Shown: one piece after another, positions 1,294-29,705 of the stretch | Numbering within the stretch: the stretch's first letter is position 1 | Layout: each line of letters begins with the position of its first letter | Source of the DNA: a virus | Taxonomy: Duplodnaviria > Heunggongvirae > Uroviricota > Caudoviricetes | Virus record (IMG/VR): IMGVR_UViG_2923296884_000001 | Length of the DNA stretch: 39,382 nucleotides | Reading direction: 5' to 3' (one strand) | Program-made: the position numbers and the translations under genes | The notes under the pieces: generated by a model | What the model was told of the DNA's origin: nothing | Database searches by the model: none | The model's input: only the letters and a program-made list of their open reading frames with translations

Positions 1294-1315
1294 TACCCAA
1301 TTTTTCTGAATCTAA

Positions 1316-1335
1316 AAAGCGCCTGCGGGCGCTTT
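1316..1335 (+). terminator. stem-loop AAAGCGCC-tgcg-GGCGCTTT directly after serS; possibly a truncated native terminator
   Basis: Perfect 8-bp inverted repeat 23 nt after the serS stop, but followed by aagtagagg rather than a T-run. Confidence 0.4.
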
Positions 1336-1414
1336 AAGTAGAGGTTTAATCATTTGAAAATAAATGGATTTTATTTTTAAGTGTCCATATAACGTCCATC
1401 TTTGAATGCAAAAA

Positions 1415-1448
1415 GCCCACAGCTTCTATGCTGTGGGCTTTGTTTTTT
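1415..1448 (+). terminator. rho-independent terminator (plus strand)
   Basis: GCCCACAGC-ttctat-GCTGTGGGC stem-loop followed by TTTGTTTTTT. Confidence 0.6.
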
Positions 1449-1470
1449 GGTGTCCTCATGAGTGAGGGAA

Positions 1471-1504
1471 CCAAAAAGAAAACCCGCAGTTTTTACGCTG
1501 CGGG
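1471..1504 (-). terminator. rho-independent terminator (minus strand), downstream of the hok-like gene
   Basis: On the minus strand CCCGCAG-cgtaaaaa-CTGCGGG followed by TTTTCTTTTT; back-to-back with the plus-strand terminator at 1415-1448. Confidence 0.5.
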
Positions 1505-1598
1505 CTTGTTGTTCACGTCAACTGGAAATAGGGTGCCTTTTCGACCTTTACCCTGGCAACCGATTGACGGGGAAGTTGCCTTCCCCGTCGCGGTTTCC

Positions 1599-1739
1599 TT
1601 ACTGCTTACACTGTAAGAACGCCGCAAACTCCGCTCCCCAGAAGCTCATCCGTATTTCACACAGCGAACCGTGTAGCATCCAGATGATGAGGATTACCGT
1701 CACGCAGAACGTGATGGCCGTAAGCGATTTTTGCGACAT
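1599..1739 (-). CDS. Hok/Gef-family type I toxin homologue (46 aa; below the ORF-track size cut-off)
   Basis: Minus-strand ORF with SD AAAGGAG ~8 nt before the ATG at 1739; translation MSQKSLTAITFCVTVILIIWMLHGSLCEIRMSFWGAEFAAFLQCKQ has an N-terminal TM helix plus the SLCEIR and VAAF-type motifs conserved in Hok/Gef; a perfect palindrome (GACGGGGAAG-ttgc-CTTCCCCGTC, 1566-1589) follows the stop. Confidence 0.55.
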   Translation of the reverse strand: MSQKSLTAITFCVTVILIIWMLHGSLCEIRMSFWGAEFAAFLQCKQ

Positions 1740-1930
1740 AGCGCTTGCTCCTTTGTTGGAGAGGCGCTAACCTATCACTTGCTTAAGGTAGATATGTTAG
1801 GGCCTCGGTTAAACAGAAATGTTTTCCGGGGCCTTTCCACATCTGGCCTTCGGGTATTCCCTCCGACCATCAGCCGAAAGGCACCCGCGCGTAATCTATC
1901 GCTTTTTTGTTACTCCGGCAATTCTGCCTG

Positions 1931-2191
1931 TTAATTCTGAGGTAAAGGCAAACTCATCTGATTGTTTCCCCTGTGTGAAGCTGGCAGCTCATGCCACGGG
2001 ATACCTTCTGAAGAGTGAACGCCGGAGGTGTGTTTTGATGTGAATTTATGGAAAGCTTCCAGTGTTGAGAAGCATACGCCGCATTCCAGGTTGTTACACT
2101 GGTAATACTTTTGCCGCACGGTGTTTGAATCATTTTCCGGACGACTGGTGCGGATACGGGCAGATGCGCCACAAAGCGGACAACGGAACAT
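1931..2191 (-). CDS. ogr: Ogr/Delta-family zinc-finger late-gene activator
   Basis: N-terminus MFRCPLCGASARIRTSR...YYQCNNLECGVCF matches the Ogr C-x2-C...C-x4-C zinc finger; SD AAGGGAGG upstream of the ATG at 2191; sits immediately after D as in P2. Confidence 0.8.
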   Translation of the reverse strand: MFRCPLCGASARIRTSRPENDSNTVRQKYYQCNNLECGVCFSTLEAFHKFTSKHTSGVHSSEGIPWHELPASHRGNNQMSLPLPQN

Positions 2192-2233
2192 AGCGACCTC
2201 CCTTAACGTGGTGCTGCTGCTATTCTAAGTTGC

Positions 2234-3343
2234 TCACTCTGTTTCTGCTATCCATTCCGGGATTTTTGCCTCAAGCTCAAGCTGCGTGGTAAAGCCGCTG
2301 TTATCGATGGTGTGCTCGGCTTTTGCAATAATCCAGTCCTGATTATCAATCTCGCTTTTAAATCCTGTTACCGTGCCATGCATTTCGGGGTAGAGTTCTG
2401 CACGTCCACGCGCCAGCGTGATGGAGAATGATGCGGCTCCGCGTTGTAGTTGCTGCCACTTTGCCGCCGCTGCGCGTCTTGCTGCCTGCTCGTTCTGATA
2501 AGTCTTGCGTAACACAAACACATTGCCTTCCGCGCCTTCCATATAATCACCTTCACGGCTGCTGCTTTTCTCCTTTTTGGGTTTTGGCGGTTTACGGCGT
2601 TTCACGCTGACTTTTTTCTTTTTCCCGTAATTAAGATCAAGCCAGTAAGCGCGTACCCCCGTATACGCTTCGCGGTCAGCAATGCGGAACTGATGGCGAT
2701 CGCCGCTGCTGCGTGTGATGGCAAACGATGGCAACGGCTGGCCCTGTGCGTTCACGCCACCGCCGGGCATGATGAATAACAGATTACCGCTTTTTACCGT
2801 GGTGATTGCGCCCAGCATTTCTGCCATGCGCGTAAGGAAGGACATGTCGCTTTCTTCGGTCTGGTCGGCGTGGTCGATTTCGATATCCATCAGCATTTCG
2901 CTGATTTGCGGTTTCAGACCATACCGATGAGCGATGGCGGATACCACACGCTCAACGGTCACATCATGCCAGGACACCTCACGTTTAACGTTAAATTCAT
3001 CCCGAAAATCTGCGCTTCTGGCTGAAACAGTCAGCCTGTCCGGCGGTCCTTCGTGAGCGATTTCATCAACAATGTAAGTGCCTTTTTCTGTCAGCGGTTC
3101 TCCTTTCCAGCCAATGAGAACCGTCAGGCGCGCGCCCCGTGGCGGTAGCTGCAACTGACCATCCGCATCATCCAGCGTGATGGTGAGCTGGTCCGCGTCA
3201 AATCCCCGGTTGTCGGTCAGTGACAGGCTCATCAGGCGCTCTGCCACGCCTGACAGCGTTTTACCCTCCGCGAGAATATCAAAATCCGGCATTTTTACGG
3301 GGTCTGTGCCCTGACTGAGCAATTGCATGGTGGTGTCGGTCAT
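2234..3343 (-). CDS. D: tail protein D (late control gene D)
   Basis: ORF 2234..3475 matches P2 gpD along its length; start refined to the ATG at 3343 (MTDTTMQLL...) preceded by a GGGAGGGAG SD. Confidence 0.9.
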   Translation of the reverse strand: MTDTTMQLLSQGTDPVKMPDFDILAEGKTLSGVAERLMSLSLTDNRGFDADQLTITLDDADGQLQLPPRGARLTVLIGWKGEPLTEKGTYIVDEIAHEGPPDRLTVSARSADFRDEFNVKREVSWHDVTVERVVSAIAHRYGLKPQISEMLMDIEIDHADQTEESDMSFLTRMAEMLGAITTVKSGNLLFIMPGGGVNAQGQPLPSFAITRSSGDRHQFRIADREAYTGVRAYWLDLNYGKKKKVSVKRRKPPKPKKEKSSSREGDYMEGAEGNVFVLRKTYQNEQAARRAAAAKWQQLQRGAASFSITLARGRAELYPEMHGTVTGFKSEIDNQDWIIAKAEHTIDNSGFTTQLELEAKIPEWIAETE

Positions 3344-3500
3344 CTGCTCCCTCCCTGTGCGGCATGGTCGCATGTGCGTGCGGAGGGGGTTACTGCTTTT
3401 TGTTGTCGCCGTGGCGGGAGAACGGCGCAGGGGTGAGATTACGCGCGTGGTGGGTGATGATTGTTGCTGAATCATTTAACGGATACAAGGGGCTAAAGCT
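3344..3500. promoter_or_regulatory. divergent intergenic region between D and FI; candidate late promoter(s)
   Basis: 157-bp gap between divergent D and FI starts; contains TTGTTGT-N-AGAACGG, a motif also present upstream of P at 22975-23004. Confidence 0.4.
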
Positions 3501-4685
3501 ATGAGTGAAACTCGTTTTCATGGTGCCCGTGTTACGGAAAGTACCGACCTGGTAACAGCGATTAACGATGTTGATTCCAGCGTTATCGGTATCGTGGCAA
3601 CGGCGGATGATGCGGACGCGAAGCTGTTCCCGCTGAACAAGCCCACACTGCTGACCCGCGTCAATGACGTGCTGGGAAAATGCGGGACAACGGGGACGCT
3701 TTATCGTGCGCTTAAGGCCATCGCAGACCAGGTGAGCACAAAGGTGATCGTCGTTCGCGTGGCTGAACACAAAGAAGAAAACGGAAAGACGCAGGATCAA
3801 CTGGTTATCGGTGGTTCTGAATCTGACGGCAGCTATACGGGGATGTATGCGCTGCTTGTTGCAGAGCAGGATGAAAGCATCGGATACCGTCCGCGTATTC
3901 TGGCCGCGCCGGAGCTGGACACGGAGGCGGTGACAAAATCCCTGTGCGTGATTGCGGGTAAAGTGCGCGCGTTTGTGTATGCCACATGTCATGGTTGTAA
4001 CACGATGGCTGAGGCGATTACCTACCGCCAGAAATTCAACGAACGTGAGGTGATGCTCTTATGGCCTGACTTCATCGCCTACAACCCGAAAAGTGGCAAA
4101 AACGAAACGTTCCCCGCGCCTGCTTATGCGTGCGGCCTTCGTGCGTACATTGACCATGAGCAGGGCTGGCACAAATCGCTGTCCAACGTTCCGGTTAAAA
4201 ATGTGCTGGGGATGTCCAGGCATGTGTTCTGGTCGTTACAGGCCGAAGACAGTGATGCCAACAGCCTCAACAACAAAGAAATCACGACCATTATTCGTCG
4301 TAACGGGTTCCGCTTCTGGGGCAACCGCACACCGGAAACGAACGCCTACATCTTTGAGGTGTATACCCGAACCGCACAGGTGCTGGCTGATTCAATTGCG
4401 GAAGCGCAGTTTGAAACCATCGACAGTCCACTGACACCTGCGAACGTGAAGGATGTTATCAGCGCCATCAGAGCAAAACTGGATTCGCTGGTTACTGTCG
4501 GGAAACTGATTGGTGCGGAGTGCTGGTATGACGTGGTGGATAACAGCACCACGGGTTTACGTCAGGGGCGTGTGCGTATTCGCTACAAATATACGCCTGT
4601 TCCCCCGCTGGAAGACATGGAGCTTTACCAGTCGTTTACTGATGAATTCTTTGGTCCCGCATTTGCGGTGCTGGGAGGTGCCTGA
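3501..4685 (+). CDS. FI: tail sheath protein
   Basis: 394-aa ORF with sheath-protein features and P2 gpFI similarity; followed by the tube gene with ATGA overlap. Confidence 0.93.
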   Translation: MSETRFHGARVTESTDLVTAINDVDSSVIGIVATADDADAKLFPLNKPTLLTRVNDVLGKCGTTGTLYRALKAIADQVSTKVIVVRVAEHKEENGKTQDQLVIGGSESDGSYTGMYALLVAEQDESIGYRPRILAAPELDTEAVTKSLCVIAGKVRAFVYATCHGCNTMAEAITYRQKFNEREVMLLWPDFIAYNPKSGKNETFPAPAYACGLRAYIDHEQGWHKSLSNVPVKNVLGMSRHVFWSLQAEDSDANSLNNKEITTIIRRNGFRFWGNRTPETNAYIFEVYTRTAQVLADSIAEAQFETIDSPLTPANVKDVISAIRAKLDSLVTVGKLIGAECWYDVVDNSTTGLRQGRVRIRYKYTPVPPLEDMELYQSFTDEFFGPAFAVLGGA

Positions 4686-5197
4686 TGGCTGTACCAAAAC
4701 ATCTTCGCTTTTTTACGTTGTTTGTGGATGGTGAAAACGAAGTGGGTAAAGTGACATCCGTCACGCCACCCAAACTGACGCGCAAAACCGACAGCTATCG
4801 TGGTGGTGGCATGATGGGGGCGGTAAGTATTGATCTCGGTCTGGACGACTCCGCGCTTGATGCGAGTTTTGTCATGGGGGGAGCTGTTCGTGCGCTGTTC
4901 CTTAAATATGGCGGCACGATTGACGGCACGCTGCTGCGTTTTGCGGGTGAATACTACACCGATGCAGAAAGCGATCTGTATGAAATCGAGATGCGCGGGC
5001 GTGTGACGGAAATTGATATGGGGGAGGCCAAACAGGGCGAAGCCACATCACACACTTACGCTGTCAAAAACACCTACTACAAGCTGAGCGTTAACGATCG
5101 CCCGCTGTGGGAAATCGACCTGTTGAACCACATCTACCGGAAGGACGGCAAGGACATTGTGCCTGACCGCATTCGTTCCGCGCTTGGGCTTGGCTGA
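4685..5197 (+). CDS. FII: tail tube protein
   Basis: 170-aa ORF matching P2 gpFII, in the conserved position after the sheath gene. Confidence 0.93.
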   Translation: MAVPKHLRFFTLFVDGENEVGKVTSVTPPKLTRKTDSYRGGGMMGAVSIDLGLDDSALDASFVMGGAVRALFLKYGGTIDGTLLRFAGEYYTDAESDLYEIEMRGRVTEIDMGEAKQGEATSHTYAVKNTYYKLSVNDRPLWEIDLLNHIYRKDGKDIVPDRIRSALGLG

Positions 5198-5252
5198 TAA
5201 GTAATATGCAGGCGGCGCAGTGCGTCGCCTCTGACTGAAAAGGAGACAACTG

Positions 5253-5627
5253 ATGAAAGATATCGATACTGAAACCCGGAATAACACCGTAGCGGATGAT
5301 GTGACGGCAGGTGAGGATATGGCTGTCGAACGTGGTGTAAAACTTTCCCGGCCAATTGAGCGTGGTGGCGAAAAAATCACATATGTGGAGATCACCGGGG
5401 CTATTGAGCAGGCGGGATCCCTGCGTGGTCTGTCGCTGTCTGATGTGCTGAATCTGAAAGCGGATACCATGTTCACGCTGTTGCCTCGCGTGACCTCGCC
5501 ACGACTGGATGAAGTGATGATTAAAAAAATGTCGTCACGCGATTTTATTCGGTTGTGCGCTGTGGCTGTAAATTTTATGAGCGAGCCAGACTCTGGCGCG
5601 AAGAGCGTGCAGGAGACGGCAGCGTAA
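5253..5627 (+). CDS. E: tail assembly chaperone E
   Basis: 124-aa ORF in the conserved position between tube and tape-measure genes, with an overlapping -1 frame ORF as in P2 E/E'. Confidence 0.85.
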   Translation: MKDIDTETRNNTVADDVTAGEDMAVERGVKLSRPIERGGEKITYVEITGAIEQAGSLRGLSLSDVLNLKADTMFTLLPRVTSPRLDEVMIKKMSSRDFIRLCAVAVNFMSEPDSGAKSVQETAA

Positions 5628-5791
5628 TCACCCTGGTGTGCTTTGAGCACATCGAAGATCTGGTGGCGGATATTGCCGCCATTTTTAACTGGTCGCCCGC
5701 CGAAATCTTCATGATGACGCCCGGCGAAGTGGTTAGCTGGCGTGAGCGGGCGGCACTTCGCAGCGGGAATGCAGATAATGAAGACTCTTGA
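5555..5791 (+). CDS. E': E' extension (-1 frame) of the E+E' frameshift product; true junction lies upstream, about 5525-5555
   Basis: -1 frame ORF overlapping the 3' end of E and the 5' end of T; an A7 run at 5523-5529 sits where the -1 frame opens (stop at 5522-5524 in that frame). Confidence 0.65.
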   Translation: MRCGCKFYERARLWREERAGDGSVITLVCFEHIEDLVADIAAIFNWSPAEIFMMTPGEVVSWRERAALRSGNADNEDS

Positions 5792-8585
5792 CATCCGGGT
5801 CGCTTTCAGCGCCGTTGACAGGCTGACCCGGCCTGCCGAAAACGCCCGCCGCCTGATGGGGCAGTTTGGTGACTCCATCCAGCGAACGCAGGGGGCGATC
5901 AAAAATCTCGAGCGTCAGGCGCGTTCATTTGAGCGCGCCCGTGACGCTGTCAGTAAAGCGGATGCGGGTATCGTGAAAGCACGACGCCAGCTTAACGCCC
6001 TTAATCAGTTACAACGCACGGGTACAGTGCTCAGCGAAAAACAACAAAAGCTGATGCAGCAGTTAAGCACCCGGCTTGAACGCCTGAATGAATCGCGCAC
6101 ACGGGAAATTCAGAAAATGCGGGAACTTGGCGGAGAGCTGAAACGCCACGGCATTTCCCTGACAGGCAGCGATAACACCATCCAGCAGGCCATCAGACGC
6201 ACCGAACAGTACAACAACCAGCTTGAACGCGAACGGCAGGCGCTTGCGCGTGTAACGCGGGCGCGTGAGCGGTATTCGCGCGCGCAGGAAACCGCGGGAA
6301 AACTGAAAACAGGTGGTGCGCTGGCAATTGGTGCTGCAGCGGCTGGCGGCTATGCTGCCGGGCGTTTTTTGCAGCCTGCGATCGGGTTCGGCAAAGAGAT
6401 GTCCCGCGTTCAGGCACTGACGCGAATCGACAAAAACAGCCCGCAGTTTAAGGCGCTGCGTGAGCAGGCGTTAAAACTTGGTTCTGAAACACAGTTTACT
6501 GCGAGTGATGCCGCCAGTGGGCAGAGCTTTCTGGCAATGGCTGGTTTTACTCCGCAGGCCATTCAGGCCGCATTGCCCGGTGTTCTTAATATGGCGCTGG
6601 CAGGTGGCGTCGAACTCGGCGAGACGGCTGATATAGGCTCCAATATCCTCACACAGTTCAACCTGACAGCCGATCAAATGGACCGGGTTGGCGATACGCT
6701 GACAGCAGCATTCACCCGGACCAATACTGATTTACGCGCGCTGGGCGAAACCATGAAGTATACCGGTCCGGTTGCCGCAAAACTTGGTATCAGTCTTGAA
6801 GAAGCGGCGGCCATGGCCGGGATGCTTGCCAATAATGGTCTTCGCGGAAGCGATGCTGGTACGGCCATGCGCGCAAGTCTGTCCCGCCTTGCATCACCGC
6901 CAAAAGCTGCGGCTGATGCACTGAAAGAGCTGGGGGTGTCAGTTGCTGACGCCAGAGGCAAAATGCGCCCGATGGAGGATGTGCTGCTTGATCTCTATAA
7001 GGCGACACAAAAATACGGACAGGTGGACCAGGTTTCCTTCTTCAAGGACATCGCCGGAGAAGAGGCGTTCGTTGGTTTACAGACGCTTGTTGCGGCGGCT
7101 GGTTCAGGAGAGCTGCAAAAACTGACCAGAGAATTGCAGGGGGCAAGGGGAGAGGCCGATCGCGTTGCAAAAGTAATGGCCGATAATCTTGATGGGGACC
7201 TGAAAAATCTCGACAGCGCATGGGAAGGTCTTCGTATTCGCATCAGTGATCTGGTTGACGGTCCGCTGCGTTCTGTCACGCAGTGGCTCACGCGGGTGCT
7301 TGAAAAAATCACCTCGCTGGCGCAGGCCCATCCGGTACTGACGCGCCAGCTACTGATAGCAGGCGGTGCGTTGCTGGCAATGACTGCAACGATTGGCTCG
7401 TTGTCGCTGGTTATTGGGGTGCTTTACGGAAAGCTGGCCACCCTGCGTCTTGGTTTTGACATTCTTACCCGGTCAATGAATGTCGTCCGGGTGTTGCCTG
7501 CGCTGTGGGGAATGCTGACGGGTTCTGTTTCTTTGCTGGGAGGCGCTATCGGGGCGCTGTTCAGTCCGGTTGGATTGATTGCTGCTGCGTTTGTGGCTGC
7601 GGCGGTTCTCATCTGGAAATACTGGGAACCCATTAAGGCGTTTTATGCCGGGGTGTTCAACGGGATTATGGAAAGGCTGACCCCGTTGCGCGAAACCTTT
7701 GAACGGTTTGGTCCTGTTTTTGACGCAATCGGAAGCGGGATCAGCCAGGTGTTTAACTGGTTTAAATCGCTGCTGTCACCGATGGAGTCCAGCAAGGAAA
7801 CGCTGGATAAATGTACCAGTGCTGGCGAGATATTCGGTAACGTTCTTGGTGGCGCGTTACAGCTTGTTCTGACGCCTGCAAAAATGTTGCTGGATACGCT
7901 GGCGTGGATACTTGAAAAACTCGGTGTTCTTCCGGATGAAGCGGAAAGGGCGAGAAAGAAAATCGAAGACGCACAGCGTGCGGCCATTCTTCAGGACAAG
8001 GTTACCTTGCTTCAGGGGGACCTGGCGAAAATCAATCCGCCGAAGCCTGTGGAAAATGGCAATGGCACCGGAGGTGATAACCCCAAAGACAATAAACCGC
8101 TCACAGACAGCAATACCGGGACGCTGCGCAGACTCAGCAAAATTGCTGATAACACAGGTAAGCTGGTTGAGGAGACGAAAAAACGCATTGGCCCCGGCGA
8201 TATTGTCTTTAAAAACCTGCCCCGAGCACTTGCTGTTCGTGGGGAGTGGCAGGAGCGGAAGATTGCGCAGGTCAGTAAGCCTGCCCCCGCAATTAATATC
8301 ACACCCGTGGTCCCGGCTCCGCTGCCTCCGGCGCTGGTCCCTGTTGTTGCGGCCAGCTCCCGCCCGGTGGCGGAGGCCATACGATCTCCAGTGGCATCAG
8401 TTCCTGTAACTTCCCGTAACCGGGAGCCTGTTGCCTCCGGATTTGGTGGTGAAATTCATGTTCATCTGCATAACGTTGTTACGCAGAATCCCCGCGAACT
8501 GGCGAAACTGGTCGGTGAAATGGTCAGGGCAGAAATGGAACGGCGTGCCCGTGCCGGGCGTGGCAGTTTTTACGATAAAGATTGA
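5769..8585 (+). CDS. T: tail tape-measure protein
   Basis: About 940-aa ORF with coiled-coil N-terminal half, Gly/Ala-rich hydrophobic segments and a Pro-rich C-terminus, in the P2 gpT position; start (5742, 5769 or 5778) overlaps E'. Confidence 0.9.
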   Translation: MQIMKTLDIRVAFSAVDRLTRPAENARRLMGQFGDSIQRTQGAIKNLERQARSFERARDAVSKADAGIVKARRQLNALNQLQRTGTVLSEKQQKLMQQLSTRLERLNESRTREIQKMRELGGELKRHGISLTGSDNTIQQAIRRTEQYNNQLERERQALARVTRARERYSRAQETAGKLKTGGALAIGAAAAGGYAAGRFLQPAIGFGKEMSRVQALTRIDKNSPQFKALREQALKLGSETQFTASDAASGQSFLAMAGFTPQAIQAALPGVLNMALAGGVELGETADIGSNILTQFNLTADQMDRVGDTLTAAFTRTNTDLRALGETMKYTGPVAAKLGISLEEAAAMAGMLANNGLRGSDAGTAMRASLSRLASPPKAAADALKELGVSVADARGKMRPMEDVLLDLYKATQKYGQVDQVSFFKDIAGEEAFVGLQTLVAAAGSGELQKLTRELQGARGEADRVAKVMADNLDGDLKNLDSAWEGLRIRISDLVDGPLRSVTQWLTRVLEKITSLAQAHPVLTRQLLIAGGALLAMTATIGSLSLVIGVLYGKLATLRLGFDILTRSMNVVRVLPALWGMLTGSVSLLGGAIGALFSPVGLIAAAFVAAAVLIWKYWEPIKAFYAGVFNGIMERLTPLRETFERFGPVFDAIGSGISQVFNWFKSLLSPMESSKETLDKCTSAGEIFGNVLGGALQLVLTPAKMLLDTLAWILEKLGVLPDEAERARKKIEDAQRAAILQDKVTLLQGDLAKINPPKPVENGNGTGGDNPKDNKPLTDSNTGTLRRLSKIADNTGKLVEETKKRIGPGDIVFKNLPRALAVRGEWQERKIAQVSKPAPAINITPVVPAPLPPALVPVVAASSRPVAEAIRSPVASVPVTSRNREPVASGFGGEIHVHLHNVVTQNPRELAKLVGEMVRAEMERRARAGRGSFYDKD

Positions 8586-8591
8586 GGAGTC

Positions 8592-9086
8592 ATGGCCATG
8601 ATGATGATCTATGGCATGTTTGTTTTTGAGCTGCGCACATTGCCGCATCAGCAGTTACAGCAAAACAAAAGCTGGCGGCATGTGAAAAATGAACGCGTTA
8701 ATCGTTCAGCAAGCTGGCAGTATATCGGCGCAGGTGATGATCGCATCGTGCTTTCCGGCGTGCTTTATCCTGAAATTACAGGTGGCGAAGTGTCGCTTTC
8801 GTTGCTGACCACGCAGGCATATACAGGACGCCCCTGGCCTCTGATTGATGGTGTCGGGCAGATTTACGGCATGTATGTACTGACTGAAACGAATACGACC
8901 CGTTCCGAGTTTGATCGCTACGGTAAGGCGAAAAAGATAGAATTTTCACTGACTCTTGAACGCTGTGATGAGGATTTGCGGGAGCGCCTGCAATCCTCAT
9001 CGTTCAGTGATATGCTGTCCGGCTTCAAAGATAAGGTCACATCATCCCTTAACAGCGCGGCCAGCTCCGTTAAAGGGCTGTTTTGA
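8592..9086 (+). CDS. U: tail protein U
   Basis: 164-aa ORF immediately after T with similarity to P2 gpU (MFVFELRTLPHQ... vs P2 MFVFMRQTLPHQ...). Confidence 0.9.
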   Translation: MAMMMIYGMFVFELRTLPHQQLQQNKSWRHVKNERVNRSASWQYIGAGDDRIVLSGVLYPEITGGEVSLSLLTTQAYTGRPWPLIDGVGQIYGMYVLTETNTTRSEFDRYGKAKKIEFSLTLERCDEDLRERLQSSSFSDMLSGFKDKVTSSLNSAASSVKGLF

Positions 9087-9093
9087 TTAACGC

Positions 9094-9123
9094 AAAACCG
9101 CTAATGGTCAGATTAGCGGTTTT
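9094..9123. terminator. palindromic hairpin between convergent U and invertase genes (bidirectional terminator candidate)
   Basis: AAAACCGCTAAT-ggtcag-ATTAGCGGTTTT perfect 12-bp inverted repeat, A-run on one side and T-run on the other; overlaps the invertase stop codon. Confidence 0.5.
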
Positions 9124-9712
9124 CATTTTCCTGAGTCTGCCTGGTTGTTTCTTCAGCCTGTATATCGCCTACAGGGTGATAACGATAAATCGTCGATATG
9201 CCGATGTCGTAAATGATCGCCAGTTGTTTCCTGTCATGACCGTTTTTAATCAGCCTCGCTATTTGCTCGTGTTGTTCTTTTGTCAACTTCGGGCGACGTC
9301 CGCCAATGCGTCCTTGTGCGCGTGCTGCTGCCAGCCCGGCCAGTGTACGCTCTACAATTAATTCACGTTCCATTTCGGCTAAAGCCCCCATGACGTGAAA
9401 AAAGAAACGCCCCATGGGTGTTGATGTGTCAATGCTGTCCGTCAGACTACGGAAATTAACACCTTTTTCCCGCAATTCCTCAATAAGCGTGATCAGGTGT
9501 TTCATACTTCTGCCCAGTCTGTCCAGCTTCCAGACAACCAGCGTATCTCCTTCTGATAGCGTTCTGAGCAGTTTTTTCAATCCCGGTCTGGTTGATTTCG
9601 TTCCGCTGATTTTATCTTCAAAAATCAGTTCACATCCTGCGCAGTTCAGTGCATTGCGTTGTAAATCCGTGTTCTGGTCGTTTGTTGACACACGAATATA
9701 GCCAATTTGCAT
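9113..9712 (-). CDS. serine-recombinase DNA invertase (Hin/Gin/Cin/Pin family)
   Basis: Translation from the ATG at 9712, MQIGYIRVSTNDQNTDLQRNAL..., carries the catalytic serine (GYIRVSTNDQ) and a C-terminal HTH; lies right next to an inverted-repeat-flanked tail-fibre segment. Confidence 0.93.
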   Translation of the reverse strand: MQIGYIRVSTNDQNTDLQRNALNCAGCELIFEDKISGTKSTRPGLKKLLRTLSEGDTLVVWKLDRLGRSMKHLITLIEELREKGVNFRSLTDSIDTSTPMGRFFFHVMGALAEMERELIVERTLAGLAAARAQGRIGGRRPKLTKEQHEQIARLIKNGHDRKQLAIIYDIGISTIYRYHPVGDIQAEETTRQTQENENR

Positions 9713-9726
9713 AAAAAACATCCTCT

Positions 9727-10245
9727 TTGTTTCGTGAAAAATACAGAGTTGGTATAGGTAGGGATAAAAACGAAAACGTTGGTTTAGGAGAAGGCTCGGC
9801 GCTACCCGTTGGTGTGCCTGTTCCGTGGCCCACTGCCACACCGCCAGCAGGCTGGTTACAGTGCAACGGAGCTACGTTCACCAAAGAACAATATCCTGTT
9901 CTGGCCAGAGTCTACCCGACCCTCCGTCTTCCCGATTTGCGCGGTGAGTTTATCCGTGGATGGGACGGTGGTCGCAAGGTTGATACCGGGCGTACGGTAC
10001 TTTCATTTCAGGAAGGGACTATCGTATCCGGTTTTGATGATAATAATACCGGAGATATCAGTTCGCTCGGCTCTACACAATACGGATTTGGTGACGCTTT
10101 AACCTCTAATCAACTGGGGGTCATAAATGGCAAAAAGTGGATATTTGATGCATCCTCTAAAGGTGCACAAAGATATGACTGGTGGGCTTATGTATCAGCT
10201 CGCCCCCGCAATATCGCATTTAACTATATCGTGAGGGCGGCGTGA
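9727..10245 (+). CDS. alternative tail-fibre C-terminal cassette (Hv'), promoterless in the current orientation
   Basis: Opens inside the left inverted repeat with no plausible start of its own (ORF-track start is a TTG); ends ...RPRNIAFNYIVRAA, matching the conserved P2-type fibre C-terminus. Confidence 0.8.
   Translation: MFREKYRVGIGRDKNENVGLGEGSALPVGVPVPWPTATPPAGWLQCNGATFTKEQYPVLARVYPTLRLPDLRGEFIRGWDGGRKVDTGRTVLSFQEGTIVSGFDDNNTGDISSLGSTQYGFGDALTSNQLGVINGKKWIFDASSKGAQRYDWWAYVSARPRNIAFNYIVRAA
9765..9790. other. gix/hix-like crossover site (left)
   Basis: Reverse complement TTCTCCTAAACCAACGTTTTCGTTTT shares its first 17 nt with the right-hand site; resembles the 26-bp gix architecture with AAACC half-sites. 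Confidence 0.5.
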
Positions 10246-10251
10246 TACCGT

Positions 10252-10866
10252 TCAACTGGCAAGTGCCAGTGGTGCTTCCGGCCAGATGATTTCAGGTGCC
10301 GTGCTGATATCCAGTGCGTTCAGCTCGTCGATATAATCCAGCACGGCGTTCAGTTTTGCCGTTTCTTCTGGTGTCAGACTGCGACCAGCACGCAGTTTGA
10401 GGTTGATAAGATCGACGGACGCCATCGCCTGTTTCACCCGTTGCTGGCGTTGCTGTCTGGCAACCTCCAGTTCTGCGGTTCGCTGCCGTTCAGTATCGGT
10501 TACCCACGCCTCACCGTTCCAGGTATCCCATGGCGTGGCTGGCTGTTTTGTGGTGGTGTCCGCCGGGTAATCACCCGGTTGGGTAATCAGAACGGGGTTA
10601 CCGTTCTCCGTGCTGTATACCGTCTCGCCGCGGTGATCAGGCACATGCTCCCACCCGTTCAGCGTGGCAGTCCGGCAAACCACGTAACCCGAAATTGCCT
10701 CCGGCGGTGCATCGGCGCACGAATGTGCCGGAGTACCCACCCCAAGGGCGAGATACTCCACAGAGGATGAGGTGTATTCCCGGGTTTCCTCGTCATAGTG
10801 ATATACAGTGATATCGCCCGCTACAGTGGCGATACCGTTTTCATCCAGAACTGCAGTGTTACTCAT
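10252..10866 (-). CDS. tail fibre assembly chaperone (Tfa / P2 gpG-like)
   Basis: 204-aa ORF translationally coupled (TAATG) to the upstream fibre C-terminal ORF; variable N-terminal half and conserved C-terminal half typical of Tfa proteins. Confidence 0.85.
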   Translation of the reverse strand: MSNTAVLDENGIATVAGDITVYHYDEETREYTSSSVEYLALGVGTPAHSCADAPPEAISGYVVCRTATLNGWEHVPDHRGETVYSTENGNPVLITQPGDYPADTTTKQPATPWDTWNGEAWVTDTERQRTAELEVARQQRQQRVKQAMASVDLINLKLRAGRSLTPEETAKLNAVLDYIDELNALDISTAPEIIWPEAPLALAS

Positions 10867-11108
10867 TAAACTGCCCTCACAATGTAATTAAGTGCAATGC
10901 TACGGGGTCTGACAGTGATACCCTTCGCATACCCGCTTCTGATAGAGGTCAGAATAGTAGCCTGCATACCATTGTCTGACATTGCTATGACAGGATCGCT
11001 GAATGTTGTCCCGTCCGGCATTTTAAAGCTGCCCTCACGAAGGTCTGTAATGGAATCTTCATTGTTGAATCCCATGCCGACTATCCCGAGGTTCCCGTAG
11101 TGTCCTGG
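10866..11108 (-). pseudogene. distal part of the currently fused fibre C-terminus, in a different frame from H (frameshifted end)
   Basis: This frame is open from 11108 and ends ...RPRSIALNYIVRAV, the conserved fibre terminus, while the H frame stops at 11081; the two frames overlap at 11081-11108. Confidence 0.5.
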
Positions 11109-12688
11109 TTATAATAATCCAGCATTGCTGTTCTTAACAGCGTTGCCCCTTGTGCGGACAGCAACTTACGTCCTGTATCAACTTTGCGCCCGTCGTCCCA
11201 TCCACGGATAAACTCACCGCGTAAATCGGGAAGACGGAGGGTCGGGTAGGCTCTGGCCAGAACAGGATATTGTTCTTTTGTAAAGGCGCGCCCGTCGCAC
11301 TTTAACCAGCCTGCTGGCGGTGTGGCGGTGGGCCACGGAACAGGCACACCAACGGGTAGCGCCGAGCCTTCTCCTAAACCAAGGTAATTGAGGACATCTT
11401 TTATACTGCCCTTAGCGATAATAGCGCGACCAATAGCTGTAAGGGTTGCCAGCGCTGCGCGGTCTGCTCCGGTAAAATAAGGCAACCGATCTGCTGCAGT
11501 GGCAAGTCCTGCCAGAGCAGTGAGCGTGGCATCTGCCGGTTGTTTTCCGTTTGCCAGATCGTATGCAGCCTTGACCGCTTTCGGTGTGGCGGCCAGTATT
11601 TCAGACGTGCTGTTGGTGGCGCTACTGAGTTGAACAAGGCCTTTTCGTGCCGTAGTCGCATCCTGAGCGGTATATTTCCCGTTAGCCAGGTCATATGCAG
11701 CCTTAACCGCTTTCGGTGTTGCGGCCAGCGTTTCAGAGGTGCTGTTGGTGGCGCTACTGAGTTGAACAAGGCCTTTTCGTGCCGTAGTCGCATCCTGAGC
11801 GGTATATTTCCCGTTAGCCAGGTCATATGCAGCCTTAACCGCTTTCGGTGTTGCGGCCAGCGTTTCAGAGGTGCTGTTGGTGGCGCTACTGAGTTGAACA
11901 AGGCCTTTTCGTGCCGTAGTCGCATCCTGAGCGGTATATTTCCCGTTAGCCAGGTCATATGCAGCCTTAACCGCTTTCGGTGTGGCGGCCAGCGTTTCAG
12001 AGGTGCTGTTGGTGGCGCTACTGAGTTGAACAAGGCCTTTTCGTGCCGTAGTCGCATCCTGAGCGGTATATTTCCCGTTAGCCAGGTCATATGCATCCTT
12101 AACCGCTTTCGGTGTTGCGGCCAGCGTTTCAGAGGTGCTGTTGGTGGCGCTGCTAAGTTGAACAAAGCCTTTTGCGGTCAGCGAGGCGTCCGGGTGACGT
12201 CGTGACTGCTCGTGCTCTGATATTTTATCATCCACATATTTGCGGGTTGCCAGAACCACAGACGGGTCGATTTTCAGCGTGATGGCTTCGGTGTTCGTGA
12301 CAACCAGAATCATGCGGATAGTCTGGGTGCGTCCACTGCCTTCCTGCAACTGCGGTTTGTACGTTTCCGGGCAGTTTGCCACCGCAATGAGTACACCTTT
12401 ATCATCATAAAGACCAATCTCACGGATCCAGAATCCTCCCTCGCTTTCAGGGATGATTTGCTCCGCAATAATCTGGCTCTGATTGTTAGGGTCAACACTC
12501 AGAAGATTCAGCGGTGCAATGCGTTTCTGGTTAATCAGTTTTGTTTGTGCAGGGTCTGGTGTTGGTAACACACCATTTGCATCACCAACGGCCATTCGCG
12601 TCAGATTCAGCTTACTGCCGAGCATCGTCGCGTTAGCCAGTCGTGCCGCGCCCTGATTAGTCAGAATGGCGTAGTATTTCACTGTCAT
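11081..12688 (-). CDS. H: tail fibre protein H (constant part plus currently fused variable end)
   Basis: 535-aa ORF with a P2 gpH-like N-terminus, five tandem 44-aa repeats, and a C-terminal region that enters the right inverted repeat. Confidence 0.9.
   Translation of the reverse strand: MTVKYYAILTNQGAARLANATMLGSKLNLTRMAVGDANGVLPTPDPAQTKLINQKRIAPLNLLSVDPNNQSQIIAEQIIPESEGGFWIREIGLYDDKGVLIAVANCPETYKPQLQEGSGRTQTIRMILVVTNTEAITLKIDPSVVLATRKYVDDKISEHEQSRRHPDASLTAKGFVQLSSATNSTSETLAATPKAVKDAYDLANGKYTAQDATTARKGLVQLSSATNSTSETLAATPKAVKAAYDLANGKYTAQDATTARKGLVQLSSATNSTSETLAATPKAVKAAYDLANGKYTAQDATTARKGLVQLSSATNSTSETLAATPKAVKAAYDLANGKYTAQDATTARKGLVQLSSATNSTSEILAATPKAVKAAYDLANGKQPADATLTALAGLATAADRLPYFTGADRAALATLTAIGRAIIAKGSIKDVLNYLGLGEGSALPVGVPVPWPTATPPAGWLKCDGRAFTKEQYPVLARAYPTLRLPDLRGEFIRGWDDGRKVDTGRKLLSAQGATLLRTAMLDYYNQDTTGTSG
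11369..11394. other. gix/hix-like crossover site (right)
   Basis: TTCTCCTAAACCAAGGTAATTGAGGA: imperfect dyad of 12-bp half-sites around a central AA, at the outer edge of the right inverted repeat. Confidence 0.5.
11510..12170 (-). repeat. five tandem copies of a 132-bp (44-aa) coding repeat inside H
   Basis: Near-identical 132-bp units at about 11640, 11772, 11904 and 12036 plus a more diverged flanking copy; encode LVQLSSATNSTSETLAATPKAVKAAYDLANGKYTAQDATTARKG. Confidence 0.85.
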
Positions 12689-13293
12689 GCGTTTACTCTC
12701 AGATTATCAATTAAATGAATGGCCGGGGCAGGGAAATAATCCCCTTCGACAATAATGGACTCCGGGGTGTAGGGATAAACCGTCAGGGCGTCGCCGTAAT
12801 AGCATCCCGTACCAACGAAAATCTTTCCGTTCACACTCAGGCTGATCGCCAGCCCCGTCAGATGGCGACTTACTGGTTTTGCATCCGCAATAAGGCGCTC
12901 AAGTTCCTGATACATTTCATCGGTGATGCCCTGATCAAGTACTCCGACAACAATGCGAAATGTCCCAGGCTCCTCATTGAGTTGCCACCACTCCTTTACT
13001 TCAATCAGGTAGCCGAGAGGCTCCACGGCTCTTCGCAGTGCGCTGATGGTCCCTTTGTGTCGGTGTATCAGCCATGCATCACGAATTACCTGTCGCTTTG
13101 TCTCTTCCGGCCAGTTGCGATCCCAGCGGTCAACGGAAAACGCCCAGGCGAGATAAGGCAGCAGATGCACCGGGCAGGTGTCCGGCGACCACAACGTGTT
13201 GAGGTCTACCGGAATGTCTGTAATGCGTGTTCCGACGGCTTCGGCACAACGCATGAAATTGCTGGCTGATGGTGGTAACAACGAATTACTCAT
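12685..13293 (-). CDS. I: baseplate protein I
   Basis: P2 gpI-like ORF; start taken as the ATG at 13293 (MSNSLL..., SD AAGGTGGA); overlaps the J stop and the H start as in P2. Confidence 0.85.
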   Translation of the reverse strand: MSNSLLPPSASNFMRCAEAVGTRITDIPVDLNTLWSPDTCPVHLLPYLAWAFSVDRWDRNWPEETKRQVIRDAWLIHRHKGTISALRRAVEPLGYLIEVKEWWQLNEEPGTFRIVVGVLDQGITDEMYQELERLIADAKPVSRHLTGLAISLSVNGKIFVGTGCYYGDALTVYPYTPESIIVEGDYFPAPAIHLIDNLRVNA

Positions 13294-16229: not shown

Positions 16230-18107
16230 TTATGCTGCGGGATTATTGATTTCCAGCACCAGGCTGCCGATATCGACGCCATACGTTGCATTTTTGGTAA
16301 TATCCGTCAGCGTCAGTGCATTCAGCCCCAGTGTCAGACTGTCTTTTATGACCTGGAATGCCGGGCCAACCAGTCCATTCAGTTTCGGAGTAACCGTGGC
16401 ACTGCCGGCGGTGAACACCAGCTCCAGCGTCTGCCAGTCGTTACTGTAATTCCCGAACTCGCCCAACTTTGTGTTTCCGGCTTTCTTGTGATGCATCAGA
16501 TTCAGTTTGCCGTCTGTGGTCTGGGTGAAGAACGACATCAGGAACGGGTTACCAGTCCCGGTCATCGCCACGACGTCAGGTAACGCTACATCGGTATACA
16601 GATAAATTCCCAGACCGAACTGGTTGTTGGTCAGTGCGCCTGACAGTCGAAACTTACAGCTCAGTCTGCCACCCCGTGTCAGCAGGGAGACTGCGTCATC
16701 CACCGGGCGCGTCAGGGACCAGGCTTTATTGCTCTGCTTGGCGATCTTAAATACACCATCTGACAACTGAATTCCGCCATTCTTAATGCTCCAGCCCTGC
16801 GCAGCAGCATCTCCGGCTGTCGGCAACAGGGAGATTGTGCGTACGGATGCATCTTCAGACGGCCCCGATGGCGTGTCGCCGCCGGGCGAGGGTTTGATTT
16901 CCGGTGCCTTACCACTGATGAAGGCTGAGGTGCGCCCGGCTGCGTTCAGAATAGCGGTTGCCATACGATCCGGAATAATGCTCCTGCGCGCCCATGAACT
17001 GAAATGTGTCGGGCGGTTTGATGATACCCAATTACCATTACTACGGGATTGCGCGCCGTAATAACCTGCATCAGCAATATCCGGGTCTTCTGCCGGTAAG
17101 TTGGTGGGCGTGTTGTTGCCGTTACCGTCGGTCATGAACGGCACAAAGAAAACGTTGTCGCTCTCCCTGTTTTTGTACGCGCCGTAGACGGAGTCATACT
17201 GTGTGCCGTATGTGTTTTTCCAGTAATACGTCGTGTCGCCACAAATCCACGGTACAACTGCAGCACTGCCGCCATGGCACTGCGCGTTAAATCCGGAAAG
17301 GTCAGTACGGAACTGCTTCAGCATGGCCGTGAACAGGTCCGGTTGCTGTGCGTAGGTGGCAGCGCTCATGTCAAATTCGCCCTGCATCCAGCACACCGCC
17401 AGCAACACATTTTTCGGGTTCTTCTGTAATGCCGCTTTGGTGCGTGCGATCAGGTCCTGATATAACGGTTTACCCACACCCCAGCGTGCCGAATCCTGGC
17501 TGGCCCCCGTGTCCGCACTGAATGTCCCCTCCGCGCCCTGGGTGAATGCCGAACCACCACGACAGCATGGTACCAGCAGGATCCCCGCGTTATTCGGGAT
17601 ATACGGAAGCAGTTTTTTGGCAATATGTAAGCCCTGGCCGACACAGCCGTACTGCCCTTTGCTCAGGTCTGCCTTCGGATGATTCAGTGCGCTCATATCC
17701 TGAACATCATGCAGGCAGTGGTCTGCCGGAATGATGTCGTTAAATGCGCATGCTTTACCACCGGGAGTCACTGTGTTGCGACGGGCCAGTTGCTTAATGC
17801 GTGGGTGGGGCGCATCGTAAGAATCCGGCAGCGGCATTCCCTCACCATATGACATGGCATTGGATTGACCAGCAAGTACCACCACGTAATACCACTCCGG
17901 CACGCTGCCGTGCTGGGGGGAATCAGGTGAGATGTCTGTAGTGCCATCGGCCACCATTGCCTGCATTAGATACCACGGGGTGCCGGGTTCGTAGGCAACC
18001 CGCGTCTCCCCCTGAAGATGCCACCCTTTCGCAAGATGTTCATTCACCTTTTGAGTCAGTTCAGCCTGTGTCATGGCTGTAATCAGTGCAAAGTTCTTAC
18101 TGGTCAT
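16230..18107 (-). CDS. SASA-domain carbohydrate esterase (sialate O-acetylesterase-like, NanS-p-like), 625 aa
   Basis: Contains VVVLAGQSNAMSYGEG (GQSN motif) and WMQGEFD, typical of the SASA esterase family, plus a ~300-aa C-terminal domain; start overlaps the o-spanin stop (ATGA). Confidence 0.75.
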   Translation of the reverse strand: MTSKNFALITAMTQAELTQKVNEHLAKGWHLQGETRVAYEPGTPWYLMQAMVADGTTDISPDSPQHGSVPEWYYVVVLAGQSNAMSYGEGMPLPDSYDAPHPRIKQLARRNTVTPGGKACAFNDIIPADHCLHDVQDMSALNHPKADLSKGQYGCVGQGLHIAKKLLPYIPNNAGILLVPCCRGGSAFTQGAEGTFSADTGASQDSARWGVGKPLYQDLIARTKAALQKNPKNVLLAVCWMQGEFDMSAATYAQQPDLFTAMLKQFRTDLSGFNAQCHGGSAAVVPWICGDTTYYWKNTYGTQYDSVYGAYKNRESDNVFFVPFMTDGNGNNTPTNLPAEDPDIADAGYYGAQSRSNGNWVSSNRPTHFSSWARRSIIPDRMATAILNAAGRTSAFISGKAPEIKPSPGGDTPSGPSEDASVRTISLLPTAGDAAAQGWSIKNGGIQLSDGVFKIAKQSNKAWSLTRPVDDAVSLLTRGGRLSCKFRLSGALTNNQFGLGIYLYTDVALPDVVAMTGTGNPFLMSFFTQTTDGKLNLMHHKKAGNTKLGEFGNYSNDWQTLELVFTAGSATVTPKLNGLVGPAFQVIKDSLTLGLNALTLTDITKNATYGVDIGSLVLEINNPAA

Positions 18108-22907: not shown

Positions 22908-23061
22908 AGTTTTTGCCCCTCTGACTGGTTCTTCAGTCATGATGGCAAAGCGTAACAGGCTGATACAAAGGGCTTTTGTTGTAAGAAAACGGCCAGAACA
23001 GGGGGTTAAGGAGAACGGTTTCGCGCGCGGGTAATCTTCCTGTAATTACTCAGGGGGAGCA
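22908..23061. promoter_or_regulatory. divergent late promoter region between O and P
   Basis: 154-bp gap between divergent O and P starts, as in P2; contains TTGTTGT-N-AGAACAGG (22975-23004), similar to the motif upstream of FI. Confidence 0.45.
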
Positions 23062-28710: not shown

Positions 28711-28714
28711 TGGT

Positions 28715-29674: not shown

Positions 29675-29705
29675 GTCGCTTTTCCTTATGTTGATTAATT
29701 AATCG

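What the first reader, a model, noticed from the sequence alone, without database searches (positions are those of the whole stretch)
3344..9123. Tail block FI-FII-E/E'-T-U is inverted relative to P2 synteny and separated from D
In P2 the order FI-FII-E-T-U-D-ogr is co-directional with H and forms one late operon. Here D and ogr keep the H orientation (minus) but FI through U lie on the plus strand, so D now diverges from FI across a 157-bp gap and U converges on the invertase gene across a palindromic hairpin. D would need its own promoter. I found no gix-like site at either junction, so I cannot tell whether this is an ancient rearrangement, invertase-independent inversion or a misassembly.
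Basis: partly seen in the sequence, partly recalled or inferred. Interest (0 to 1): 0.55.

Follow-up and report, generated by a model that had tools for sequence, protein, structure and literature searches.

The report
Lineage-typical inverted tail operon, P88-like prophage
The tail-gene block really does face the opposite way from phage P2, but this is the fixed, normal gene order of a whole branch of P2-like phages (the P88 group), found unchanged in about a quarter of complete E. coli genomes, so it is ordinary rather than a misassembly or a switchable inversion.

Summary
Observation confirmed; "unusual" not supported. The window is a P88-like (Xuanwuvirus, Peduoviridae) prophage next to serS. 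D and ogr are on the minus strand. FI-FII-E/E'-T-U are on the plus strand. A 157-bp gap (3344-3500) separates D from FI, and a 12-bp-stem hairpin (9094-9123) separates U from the invertase.

The same layout occurs in viable phages P88 and PhiSM and other phage records. The D/FI junction is colinear in 1355 of 5426 complete E. coli genomes. A constructed P2-type D|U junction is found in 0 of 1412. Across species, 51 loci from about 25 genera of Enterobacterales share the inversion. They split cleanly from 28 canonical loci in both D and FI trees, which suggests one old event.

Only 6 of the 51 have an invertase beside U. No cix-like site or significant inverted repeat lies at the junctions. The invertase flips the tail-fibre segment instead.

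The gap holds one P2-type late-activator site (GTTGT-N12-AGAAC, 3402-3423), identical to the one between O and P. In the inverted clade, -10-like hexamers sit 43.5 nt from its centre on both sides (FI side 38/39, D side 43/48). In canonical relatives this holds only on the FI side (17/20 versus 2/20). I infer a shared-site divergent promoter pair, P_F and P_D, like P2's P_P/P_O. This is untested.

The parts
1931..2191 (-). ogr/Delta-type zinc-finger late activator gene, 42 bp downstream of D
   Evidence: Pfam Ogr_Delta, E = 5e-14. RefSeq annotation of the identical U15A locus.
2234..3343 (-). gene D (baseplate hub/late control D), 369 aa, preceded by the Shine-Dalgarno sequence GGGAGGGAG at 3347-3355
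   Evidence: PHROG 52 and Pfam Phage_GPD. 48% identity to P2 D and 53% to Fels-2 D. Family alignments begin near residue 43 of the longer 413-aa ORF, which supports the ATG at 3343.
3344..3500 (.). 157-bp divergent D-FI intergenic region; inferred bidirectional late promoter region
   Evidence: Sequence. Length of about 145-165 bp and internal layout are conserved in 48 relatives.
3402..3423 (.). P2-type late activator (Ogr) binding site GTTGTCGCCGTGGCGGGAGAAC (TGT-N12-AGA), centre 3412.5
   Evidence: The exact pattern TTGTTGT-N12-AGAAC occurs only here and in the O-P gap. It has the same spacing as the P2 pF site GTTGT-N12-CCAAC. An exact TGT-N12-ACA lies at the same place in most relatives.
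3456..3461 (+). predicted P_F -10 hexamer GATGAT; transcription start predicted near 3469
   Evidence: A NANNNT hexamer starts 43.5 nt from the site centre in 38/39 inverted-clade loci and 17/20 canonical loci. P2 pF has GAAAAT at 44.5 nt and a mapped start at 57.5 nt.
3364..3372 (-). predicted P_D extended -10, TGC-GACCAT on the minus strand; start predicted near 3356, leaving a 13-nt leader that carries the Shine-Dalgarno sequence
   Evidence: A NANNNT hexamer at the mirror position, 43.5 nt from the centre, in 43/48 inverted-clade loci but only 2/20 canonical loci on the side away from FI. The consensus shows TGn just upstream.
3501..4685 (+). FI tail sheath
   Evidence: PHROG 23 and Pfam Phage_sheath_1. 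45-48% identity to P2 and Fels-2.
4685..5197 (+). FII tail tube
   Evidence: Pfam Phage_tube, E = 2e-45.
5253..5791 (+). E (5253-5627) and E' (-1 frame, to 5791); candidate slippery heptamer A_AAT_TTT at 5570-5576
   Evidence: Pfam Phage_TAC_7 (E = 7.4e-05, 23.1 bits, below the curated cut-off of 25) and Phage_P2_GpE. Sequence. The -1-frame ORF 5555-5791 is listed. The frameshift site is my reading of the sequence.
5778..8585 (+). T tape measure
   Evidence: PHROG 28 and Pfam PhageMin_Tail.
8598..9086 (+). U tail protein, last gene of the inverted block
   Evidence: Pfam Phage_P2_GpU, E = 5e-39.
9094..9123 (.). bidirectional terminator-like hairpin between the converging U and invertase genes
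9113..9712 (-). serine DNA invertase (Gin/Cin/Hin type); acts on the neighbouring tail-fibre segment, not on the FI-U block
   Evidence: Pfam Resolvase plus HTH_7. 81% identity to the Fels-2 invertase.
9776..11385 (.). tail-fibre invertible segment bounded by 229-nt inverted repeats, with cix-like sites at its outer ends
   Evidence: The segment is flipped in the otherwise 99.9% identical U15A prophage.
22978..22999 (.). second copy of the activator site (GTTGTAAGAAAACGGCCAGAAC) in the divergent O-P gap, for comparison

Best explanation
The window holds a P88-like (Xuanwuvirus-type) P2-family prophage. In this lineage the FI-FII-E/E'-T-U block, together with its late promoter P_F, was inverted once in an ancestor and has been fixed ever since. 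It is the normal gene order of a clade found in about 25 genera of Enterobacterales. It is not a misassembly and not a product of the adjacent invertase. The inversion placed the P_F activator site, a dyad-symmetric TGT-N12-ACA-type Ogr site, about 70 bp upstream of the D start codon. I infer that this single central site now serves two divergent late promoters. P_F drives FI-U rightward and ends at the hairpin at 9094-9123. A new P_D drives D, and probably ogr, leftward from an extended -10 at the mirror position. Phage P2 uses the same design for its divergent P_P and P_O promoters. Shown: the arrangement, its distribution, its fixation, the absence of recombination sites, and the conserved symmetric sequence layout. 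Inferred: the promoter activity, the start sites and Ogr dependence of P_D.
For: Same arrangement at 91-94% identity over 86-93% of the query 1900-10300 in P88, 500465-2, P884B11, Shae_phiSM, 520873, PhiR44_2, 503458 and Chuche, with the P88 annotation. P88 and PhiSM are viable phages (PMC5285337, PMC6456863). The D/FI junction is colinear in 1355 of 5426 complete E. coli genomes. The constructed canonical D|U junction is found in 0 of 1412. In one-genome-per-species contigs, 51 loci are inverted and 28 canonical. Every inverted locus has D at least 61% identical to the window, and every canonical locus at most 53%. The two classes form a clean split in both D and FI neighbour-joining trees. 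Block genes are as far from P2 and Fels-2 (30-48% identity) as the genes outside it, so there is no sign of foreign origin. Promoter: the exact motif occurs only in the D-FI and O-P gaps. The site centre lies 66-82 nt from the D ATG in most loci and 78-88 nt from the FI ATG. A NANNNT hexamer at 43.5 nt appears on both sides in the inverted clade (38/39 and 43/48). In canonical relatives it appears only on the FI side (17/20 against 2/20). The P2 annotation shows one activator site with the P_P and P_O starts each 55.5 nt from its centre. The TGT-N12-ACA consensus for P2 late promoters is cited in PMC3931495.
Against: No transcript data were available, so promoter, start site and Ogr dependence are inferred from sequence conservation only. 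The window's site has one mismatch to the consensus (AGA instead of ACA). The predicted D leader is short, about 13 nt. The compared loci are related, so the counts are not independent events, although the flanking sequence is otherwise strongly diverged. Start codons in relatives were called automatically; several FI starts were miscalled and those loci were left out of the FI-side counts. Neighbour-joining trees with midpoint rooting support a split, not a direction, so the ancestral state (canonical, as in more distant P2-like phages) is assumed. Only the best 80 of 398 confirmed relatives were examined.
Confidence: 0.8

Rival explanations
1. Misassembly: the true sequence has the P2 order and the block was flipped by an assembler.
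For: None found. The block is bounded by intergenic regions, where an assembly error could in principle occur.
Against: The same junctions appear in 1355 complete genomes and in many independently sequenced phage genomes. The canonical junction is found in 0 of 1412 genomes. No repeats at the junctions could mislead an assembler.
Confidence: 0.01
2. Programmed, reversible inversion of the FI-U block by the adjacent serine invertase or another recombinase, as a phase switch.
For: An active Gin/Cin-type invertase gene abuts the block. It is evidently active on the tail-fibre segment.
Against: No cix-like site lies at either junction, and the only exact sites flank the tail-fibre segment. Only one orientation exists among more than 1350 genomes. 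Of the 51 inverted loci, 45 have no invertase next to U. Flipping would cut D off from any promoter or create antisense conflicts.
Confidence: 0.02
3. Module replacement rather than in-place inversion: an ancestor acquired a foreign FI-U cassette that inserted in reverse orientation.
For: Phage genomes are mosaic, and rearranged late operons are reported in other P2-like phages such as Smp131 (PMC3931495). After this much divergence the breakpoints carry no trace of the mechanism.
Against: FI and D trees give the same clean split between inverted and canonical loci. Divergence from P2 and Fels-2 is similar inside and outside the block. P_F geometry (site to FI ATG 78-88 nt) matches that of canonical relatives, 79-85 nt.
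Confidence: 0.08
4. D is expressed, but not from an Ogr-dependent promoter that shares the P_F site. It could use a constitutive sigma-70 promoter in the gap or a separate activator site.
For: The D side has a conserved extended -10 (TGn) and a conserved CGCGCGCG tract, features that can support activator-independent initiation. The window's activator site is imperfect.
Against: The -10-like hexamer sits at exactly the mirror distance from the activator site in 43/48 loci despite heavy divergence elsewhere, and this is specific to the inverted clade. A structural tail gene is expected to be late and Ogr-dependent. P2 gives a precedent for site sharing.
Confidence: 0.2

Closest known systems
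Escherichia phage P88 and the genus Xuanwuvirus (Peduoviridae), including P884B11, 500465-2 and Citrobacter phage PhiSM
   Same: Same gene order and orientations: ogr- D- | FI+ FII+ E+ E'+ T+ U+ | invertase- followed by the tail-fibre segment. 91-94% nucleotide identity over 86-93% of window 1900-10300. These are viable temperate phages.
   Different: The tail-fibre variable segment and some accessory genes differ. Some relatives carry IS100 insertions in the block.
Phage P2 F operon (FI-FII-E-E'-T-U-D under P_F, reading through ogr)
   Same: Same genes in the same internal order. Same type of activator site at the same distance from FI, with a -10-like hexamer 43.5-44.5 nt from the site centre.
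   Different: In P2, D is the last gene of the F operon, co-directional with FI-U and with H. Here D and ogr are split off and diverge from FI across 157 bp.
Phage P2 divergent late promoters P_P and P_O
   Same: A divergent gene pair separated by about 155-175 bp, with one central dyad-symmetric activator site and, in P2, start sites 55.5 nt on either side. The window's own O-P gap has the same site as its D-FI gap.
   Different: Different genes are controlled. P_D/P_F activity has not been measured.
Salmonella phage Fels-2 (Felsduovirus)
   Same: A P2-like phage with a Gin/Cin-type invertase (81% identical) between the tail-fibre segment and the FI-U-D genes.
   Different: FI-U-D-ogr are all co-directional, so having the invertase does not go with the block inversion.
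Mu G, P1 C and Salmonella Hin invertible segments
   Same: The window's tail-fibre segment 9776-11385 fits this kind: cix-like sites in inverted orientation, an adjacent serine invertase, and both orientations seen.
   Different: The FI-U block does not fit: no sites, and one orientation only.

Membership tests
P2-like phages (Peduoviridae) | Full set of P2 late genes (Q P O N M L X, lysis, R S V W J I H G FI FII E E' T U D), ogr, and an int / repressor-cox switch / A replication module | tested here: met
   tblastn finds P2 and Fels-2 homologues for 22-23 of 25 genes tested, at 25-67% identity apart from the invertase (81% to Fels-2). PHROG and Pfam assignments. RefSeq annotation of the identical locus.
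Genus Xuanwuvirus (P88-like) | High nucleotide identity to P88 over the genome (the ICTV genus criterion of about 70% over the whole genome is from my own knowledge) | tested here: inconclusive
   91.7% identity to P88 over 93% of the 8.4-kb query 1900-10300. Whole-genome identity was not computed.
Genus Xuanwuvirus (P88-like) | D and ogr diverging from FI-U, the arrangement seen in the type phage | tested here: met
   (P88 annotation) compared.
Invertase-controlled invertible DNA segment (Gin/Cin/Hin type), applied to the FI-U block | Two crossover sites in inverted orientation at the segment ends | tested here: not met
   The only exact half-sites are at 9779-9792 and 11369-11382. The junction windows have no half-site better than 4 of 12 mismatches, and the longest inverted repeat of 9 bp is at chance level.
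Invertase-controlled invertible DNA segment (Gin/Cin/Hin type), applied to the FI-U block | Both orientations present among closely related genomes | tested here: not met
   1355 genomes have the D/FI junction. 0 of 1412 have the alternative junction.
Invertase-controlled invertible DNA segment, applied to the tail-fibre segment 9776-11385 | Inverted crossover sites, an adjacent serine invertase, and both orientations observed | tested here: met
P2-type Ogr-dependent late promoter (for P_F and the inferred P_D) | TGT-N12-ACA dyad centred about 55 nt upstream of the start site (consensus cited in PMC3931495) | tested here: inconclusive
   The site is present with one mismatch (TGT-N12-AGA) at 3404-3421. 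An exact version sits at the same place in most relatives. -10-like hexamers lie 43.5 nt away on both sides. The start sites themselves are not known.
P2-type Ogr-dependent late promoter (for P_F and the inferred P_D) | Transcription activated by the phage's Ogr/Delta-type protein | not testable with these tools
   An ogr gene is present. Activation needs a reporter or transcript experiment.
Intrinsic bidirectional terminator (hairpin 9094-9123) | Stable stem-loop flanked by an A-tract and a T-tract between converging genes | tested here: met
   12-bp perfect stem, A4/T4 ends, z = -3.4 and -4.2 on the two strands. Termination itself was not measured.

The most novel reading that the evidence does not exclude
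The ancestral inversion was tolerated because the Ogr site is dyad-symmetric. Moving P_F next to D turned a one-way late promoter into a two-way one, and a new extended -10 then evolved at the mirror position. The result is a short, separately Ogr-activated D-ogr operon, and so a tighter positive feedback on ogr than P2's 6-kb read-through. This design has been kept across about 25 genera. I found no description of this promoter pair in the papers I could search.
Probability: 0.5. Interest if true: 0.3.

Novelty: already known. Interest (0 to 1): 0.15.

Why it matters
It matters mainly as a correction. P2 synteny is not the right reference for this prophage, so annotation pipelines and readers should not flag the P88-type order as an anomaly or an assembly error.

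A smaller positive point is that the clade offers a natural example of how an operon-breaking inversion can be rescued by a symmetric activator site. It predicts a specific, easily tested new late promoter for gene D.

The arrangement is also a simple synteny marker, D diverging from FI, that separates the P88-like clade from other P2-like phages.

Tried and rejected
- **Recombination sites at the block junctions.** A cix-like half-site search with up to 3 mismatches found only chance-level hits inside T. An inverted-repeat search over 1300-12800 and a focused junction comparison found nothing beyond chance.
- **Canonical orientation in E. coli.** A chimeric D|U junction query found it in no genome.
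- **Further late promoters in the window.** I scanned for the site plus a -10 at the fixed offset. It gave 4 hits against 3.1 expected, so the composite pattern is not specific on its own. No P_V-like promoter could be named.
- **Generic sigma-70 scan.** It found no promoter-like site in the D-FI gap, as expected for activator-dependent promoters that lack a -35.
- **Literature.** The P88 paper, a 2026 P2-like diversity paper, the C. rodentium prophage paper, a P2-like regulatory phylogeny paper and the P2 hotspot paper contain no mention of inversion or rearrangement of these genes.
- **PADLOC scan of accessory genes.** No hits.
- **Foreign origin of the block.** I considered this and ranked it low, because identities and trees inside and outside the block agree.
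Full report
**What is in the window.**
The window is an E. coli chromosome segment that starts in serS (1-1293) and then carries a complete P2-family prophage. The annotation of an essentially identical locus in strain U15A (99.8-99.9% identity, collinear apart from the flipped tail-fibre segment), together with PHROG and Pfam scans, gives this layout:
- hok/gef 1599-1739 (-)
- ogr 1931-2191 (-)
- D 2234-3343 (-)
- FI 3501-4685, FII 4685-5197, E 5253-5627, E' to 5791, T 5778-8585 and U 8598-9086, all (+)
- a serine invertase 9113-9712 (-)
- a tail-fibre region
- H, I, J, W, V, S, R, lysis genes, X, L, M, N and O on the minus strand up to 22907
- P and Q on the plus strand
- replication and switch genes, with the integrase at the right end

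**Check of the observation.**
- The D-FI gap is 3344-3500, 157 bp.
- U and the invertase converge on a perfect 12-bp-stem hairpin with A4/T4 ends at 9094-9123. It folds on both strands with z-scores of -3.4 and -4.2.
- P2 and Fels-2 both have FI-FII-E-T-U-D-ogr co-directional, so the block is inverted relative to them.
I located the real crossover sites by comparing the window with U15A, where the tail-fibre segment is flipped. Their common half-site TTCTCCTAAACCAA occurs exactly twice, at 9779-9792 and 11369-11382. Neither junction has a half-site better than 4 of 12 mismatches.
- The longest inverted repeat between the two junction windows is 9 bp, a length reached or exceeded in 23 of 300 shuffles.

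**Is it unusual? No.**
- The 8.4-kb stretch 1900-10300 matches Escherichia phages 500465-2, P884B11, P88, 520873, PhiR44_2, 503458 and Chuche, and Citrobacter phage PhiSM. Identity is 91-94%, over 86-93% of the query. The matches are collinear (one piece) in most records. In three phages (500465-2, 520873, 503458) they are split into 2-3 pieces; two of these (520873, 503458) carry an annotated IS100 insertion under the match.
- The P88 annotation shows the same orientations.
- P88 and PhiSM are inducible or spontaneously active, plaque-forming phages (PMC5285337; PMC6456863), so the arrangement is functional.
- A 901-bp probe across the D/FI junction is colinear in 1355 of 5426 complete E. coli genomes.
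- A chimeric probe that imitates the P2-type D|U junction is found as one piece in 0 of 1412 genomes that carry the two halves.
- The U/invertase junction is intact in 619 genomes. The rest have something other than this invertase next to U.

**How old and how wide.**
I scanned one genome per species with an alignment of three D proteins and classified the 80 best loci by tblastn with window, P2 and Fels-2 proteins.
- Fifty-one loci have J+ I+ ... U- T- FII- FI- | D+ ogr+, the window's arrangement. They come from Salmonella, Edwardsiella, Enterobacter, Citrobacter, Klebsiella, Kosakonia, Pantoea, Brenneria, Pectobacterium, Serratia, Yersinia, Hafnia, Morganella, Providencia, Xenorhabdus, Photorhabdus and others, about 25 genera in all.
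- Twenty-eight loci have the canonical order.
- Every inverted locus has a D protein at least 61% identical to the window's. Every canonical locus is at most 53% identical.
- In neighbour-joining trees of D (outside the block) and FI (inside it), the two classes form a clean split: 49 of 49 and 48 of 48.
- Block genes are as far from P2 and Fels-2 (30-48% identity) as the head and baseplate genes.

The simplest reading is one ancient in-place inversion that defines a clade. A reverse-oriented module acquisition cannot be fully excluded for an event this old.

**Role of the invertase.**
Only 6 of the 51 inverted loci show an invertase next to U. Fels-2 has an 81%-identical invertase with the canonical order. 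The block inversion and the invertase are therefore unlinked. The invertase's real substrate is the tail-fibre segment between the 229-nt inverted repeats 9776-10004 and 11157-11385. That segment is in opposite orientations in the window and in U15A.

**How D is probably expressed (inferred).**
Upstream of D on its own strand lie 5.7 kb of antisense tail genes and the terminator hairpin.
- The 157-bp gap contains GTTGTCGCCGTGGCGGGAGAAC (3402-3423). The pattern TTGTTGT-N12-AGAAC occurs exactly twice in the window, here and in the divergent O-P gap at 22976-22999.
- It has the spacing of the annotated P2 activator sites, for example pF GTTGT-N12-CCAAC. It is a one-mismatch version of the P2 late-promoter consensus TGT-N12-ACA (consensus as cited in PMC3931495).
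- In most relatives an exact TGT-N12-ACA sits at the same place.
- I anchored 48 diverged intergenic regions on this site. The centre lies 66-82 nt from the D start codon in most loci and 78-88 nt from the FI start.
- A -10-like hexamer, with A at position 2 and T at position 6, begins 43.5 nt from the centre on the FI side in 38 of 39 loci and on the D side in 43 of 48. No other offset scores above 8.
- As a control, canonical relatives show the hexamer on the FI side in 17 of 20 but on the far side in only 2 of 20. The D-side element is therefore specific to the inverted clade.
- In P2, the pF -10 (GAAAAT) begins 44.5 nt from the centre and the mapped start is 57.5 nt away. The divergent P_P and P_O starts each lie 55.5 nt from the centre of one annotated activator site.

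By analogy the window's P_F would use GATGAT (3456-3461) and start near 3469. P_D would use TGC-GACCAT (3372-3364, minus strand) and start near 3356, leaving a 13-nt leader that carries the Shine-Dalgarno sequence GGGAGGGAG. The D side also has a conserved CGCGCGCG tract and a TGn extended -10 in the consensus. No terminator-like site was found between D and ogr on the minus strand, so ogr is probably co-transcribed with D.

None of this has been measured. The loci are related, so the counts are not independent. Several FI start codons were miscalled by my script, and those loci were dropped from the FI-side counts.

**Comparison with what is known.**
The arrangement is that of phage P88 and the ICTV genus Xuanwuvirus, and it is visible in public annotated records. 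The papers I could search do not discuss it. Rearranged late operons are reported in other P2-like phages such as Smp131, where P_P' and P_O' are also assigned to one shared site. The inferred P_D/P_F pair works like P2's P_P/P_O pair. Whether it belongs to the Ogr-dependent promoter class cannot be decided without transcript or reporter data.

**Verdict.**
It is a true inversion relative to P2, and D needs its own promoter. It is not unusual, not a misassembly and not invertase-driven.
- The feature is already known in the sense that it is the standard layout of a named phage genus and of about a quarter of complete E. coli genomes.
- The only modestly new element is the sequence-based prediction of a shared-site bidirectional late promoter.
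- Interest is low.

Noticed in passing
window 9776-11385: The tail-fibre invertible segment (unique part 9995-11166, between 229-nt inverted repeats) is in the opposite orientation in the otherwise 99.9% identical E. coli U15A prophage. Cix-like sites TTCTCCTAAACCAA lie at both outer ends. Both fibre variants share a Collar domain encoded in the repeat. Only the variant expressed in the window's orientation is followed by a G-type assembly chaperone (10252-10866) and a 69-aa ORF (10866-11075).
   Followed up: partly
window 11543-12173: The H tail-fibre gene contains 4.8 copies of a 132-bp (44-aa) tandem repeat at 96% identity.
   Followed up: no
window 3370-3395, and the same position in L005-L053: On the D side of the D-FI gap, a CGCGCGCG-like alternating GC tract just upstream of the -10-like hexamer is conserved across genera. 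A similar tract precedes the -10-like hexamers on the FI side and the P side in the window. Its role is unknown.
   Followed up: partly
window 28400-29675: ParM-type plasmid segregation ATPase and a partition/stability protein inside a P2-like prophage. The P2 hotspot paper notes that such systems might allow maintenance as a plasmid (PMC9122126). No PADLOC hit.
   Followed up: no
window 16230-18107: A 625-aa DUF6645 ORF sits between the lysis genes and R, inside the late operon. It has no counterpart in P2 or Fels-2 at that position and no PADLOC hit.
   Followed up: no
window 5570-5576: Candidate -1 slippery heptamer A_AAT_TTT that would join E to the E' frame (ORF 5555-5791). It lies 50 bp upstream of the E stop codon. 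This is my reading of the sequence.
   Followed up: no
window 2234-3475; L001 2234-3087: RefSeq annotation of the identical D gene in U15A splits it into an 801-bp 'VgrG/Pvc8 family' CDS plus a pseudogene fragment, although the ORF is intact. Other genomes call it 'phage late control D family protein'. This is an annotation inconsistency, not a sequence defect.
   Followed up: no
L006 (NZ_JBQPOM010000071.1, labelled Vagococcus sp.): A contig attributed to a Gram-positive Vagococcus carries a D gene 98% identical to the window's, with the same prophage layout. This is probably contamination or mislabelling of that assembly.
   Followed up: no
window 1599-1739: A hok/gef-family toxin gene lies between serS and ogr at the prophage's left end, as in P88.
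   Followed up: no
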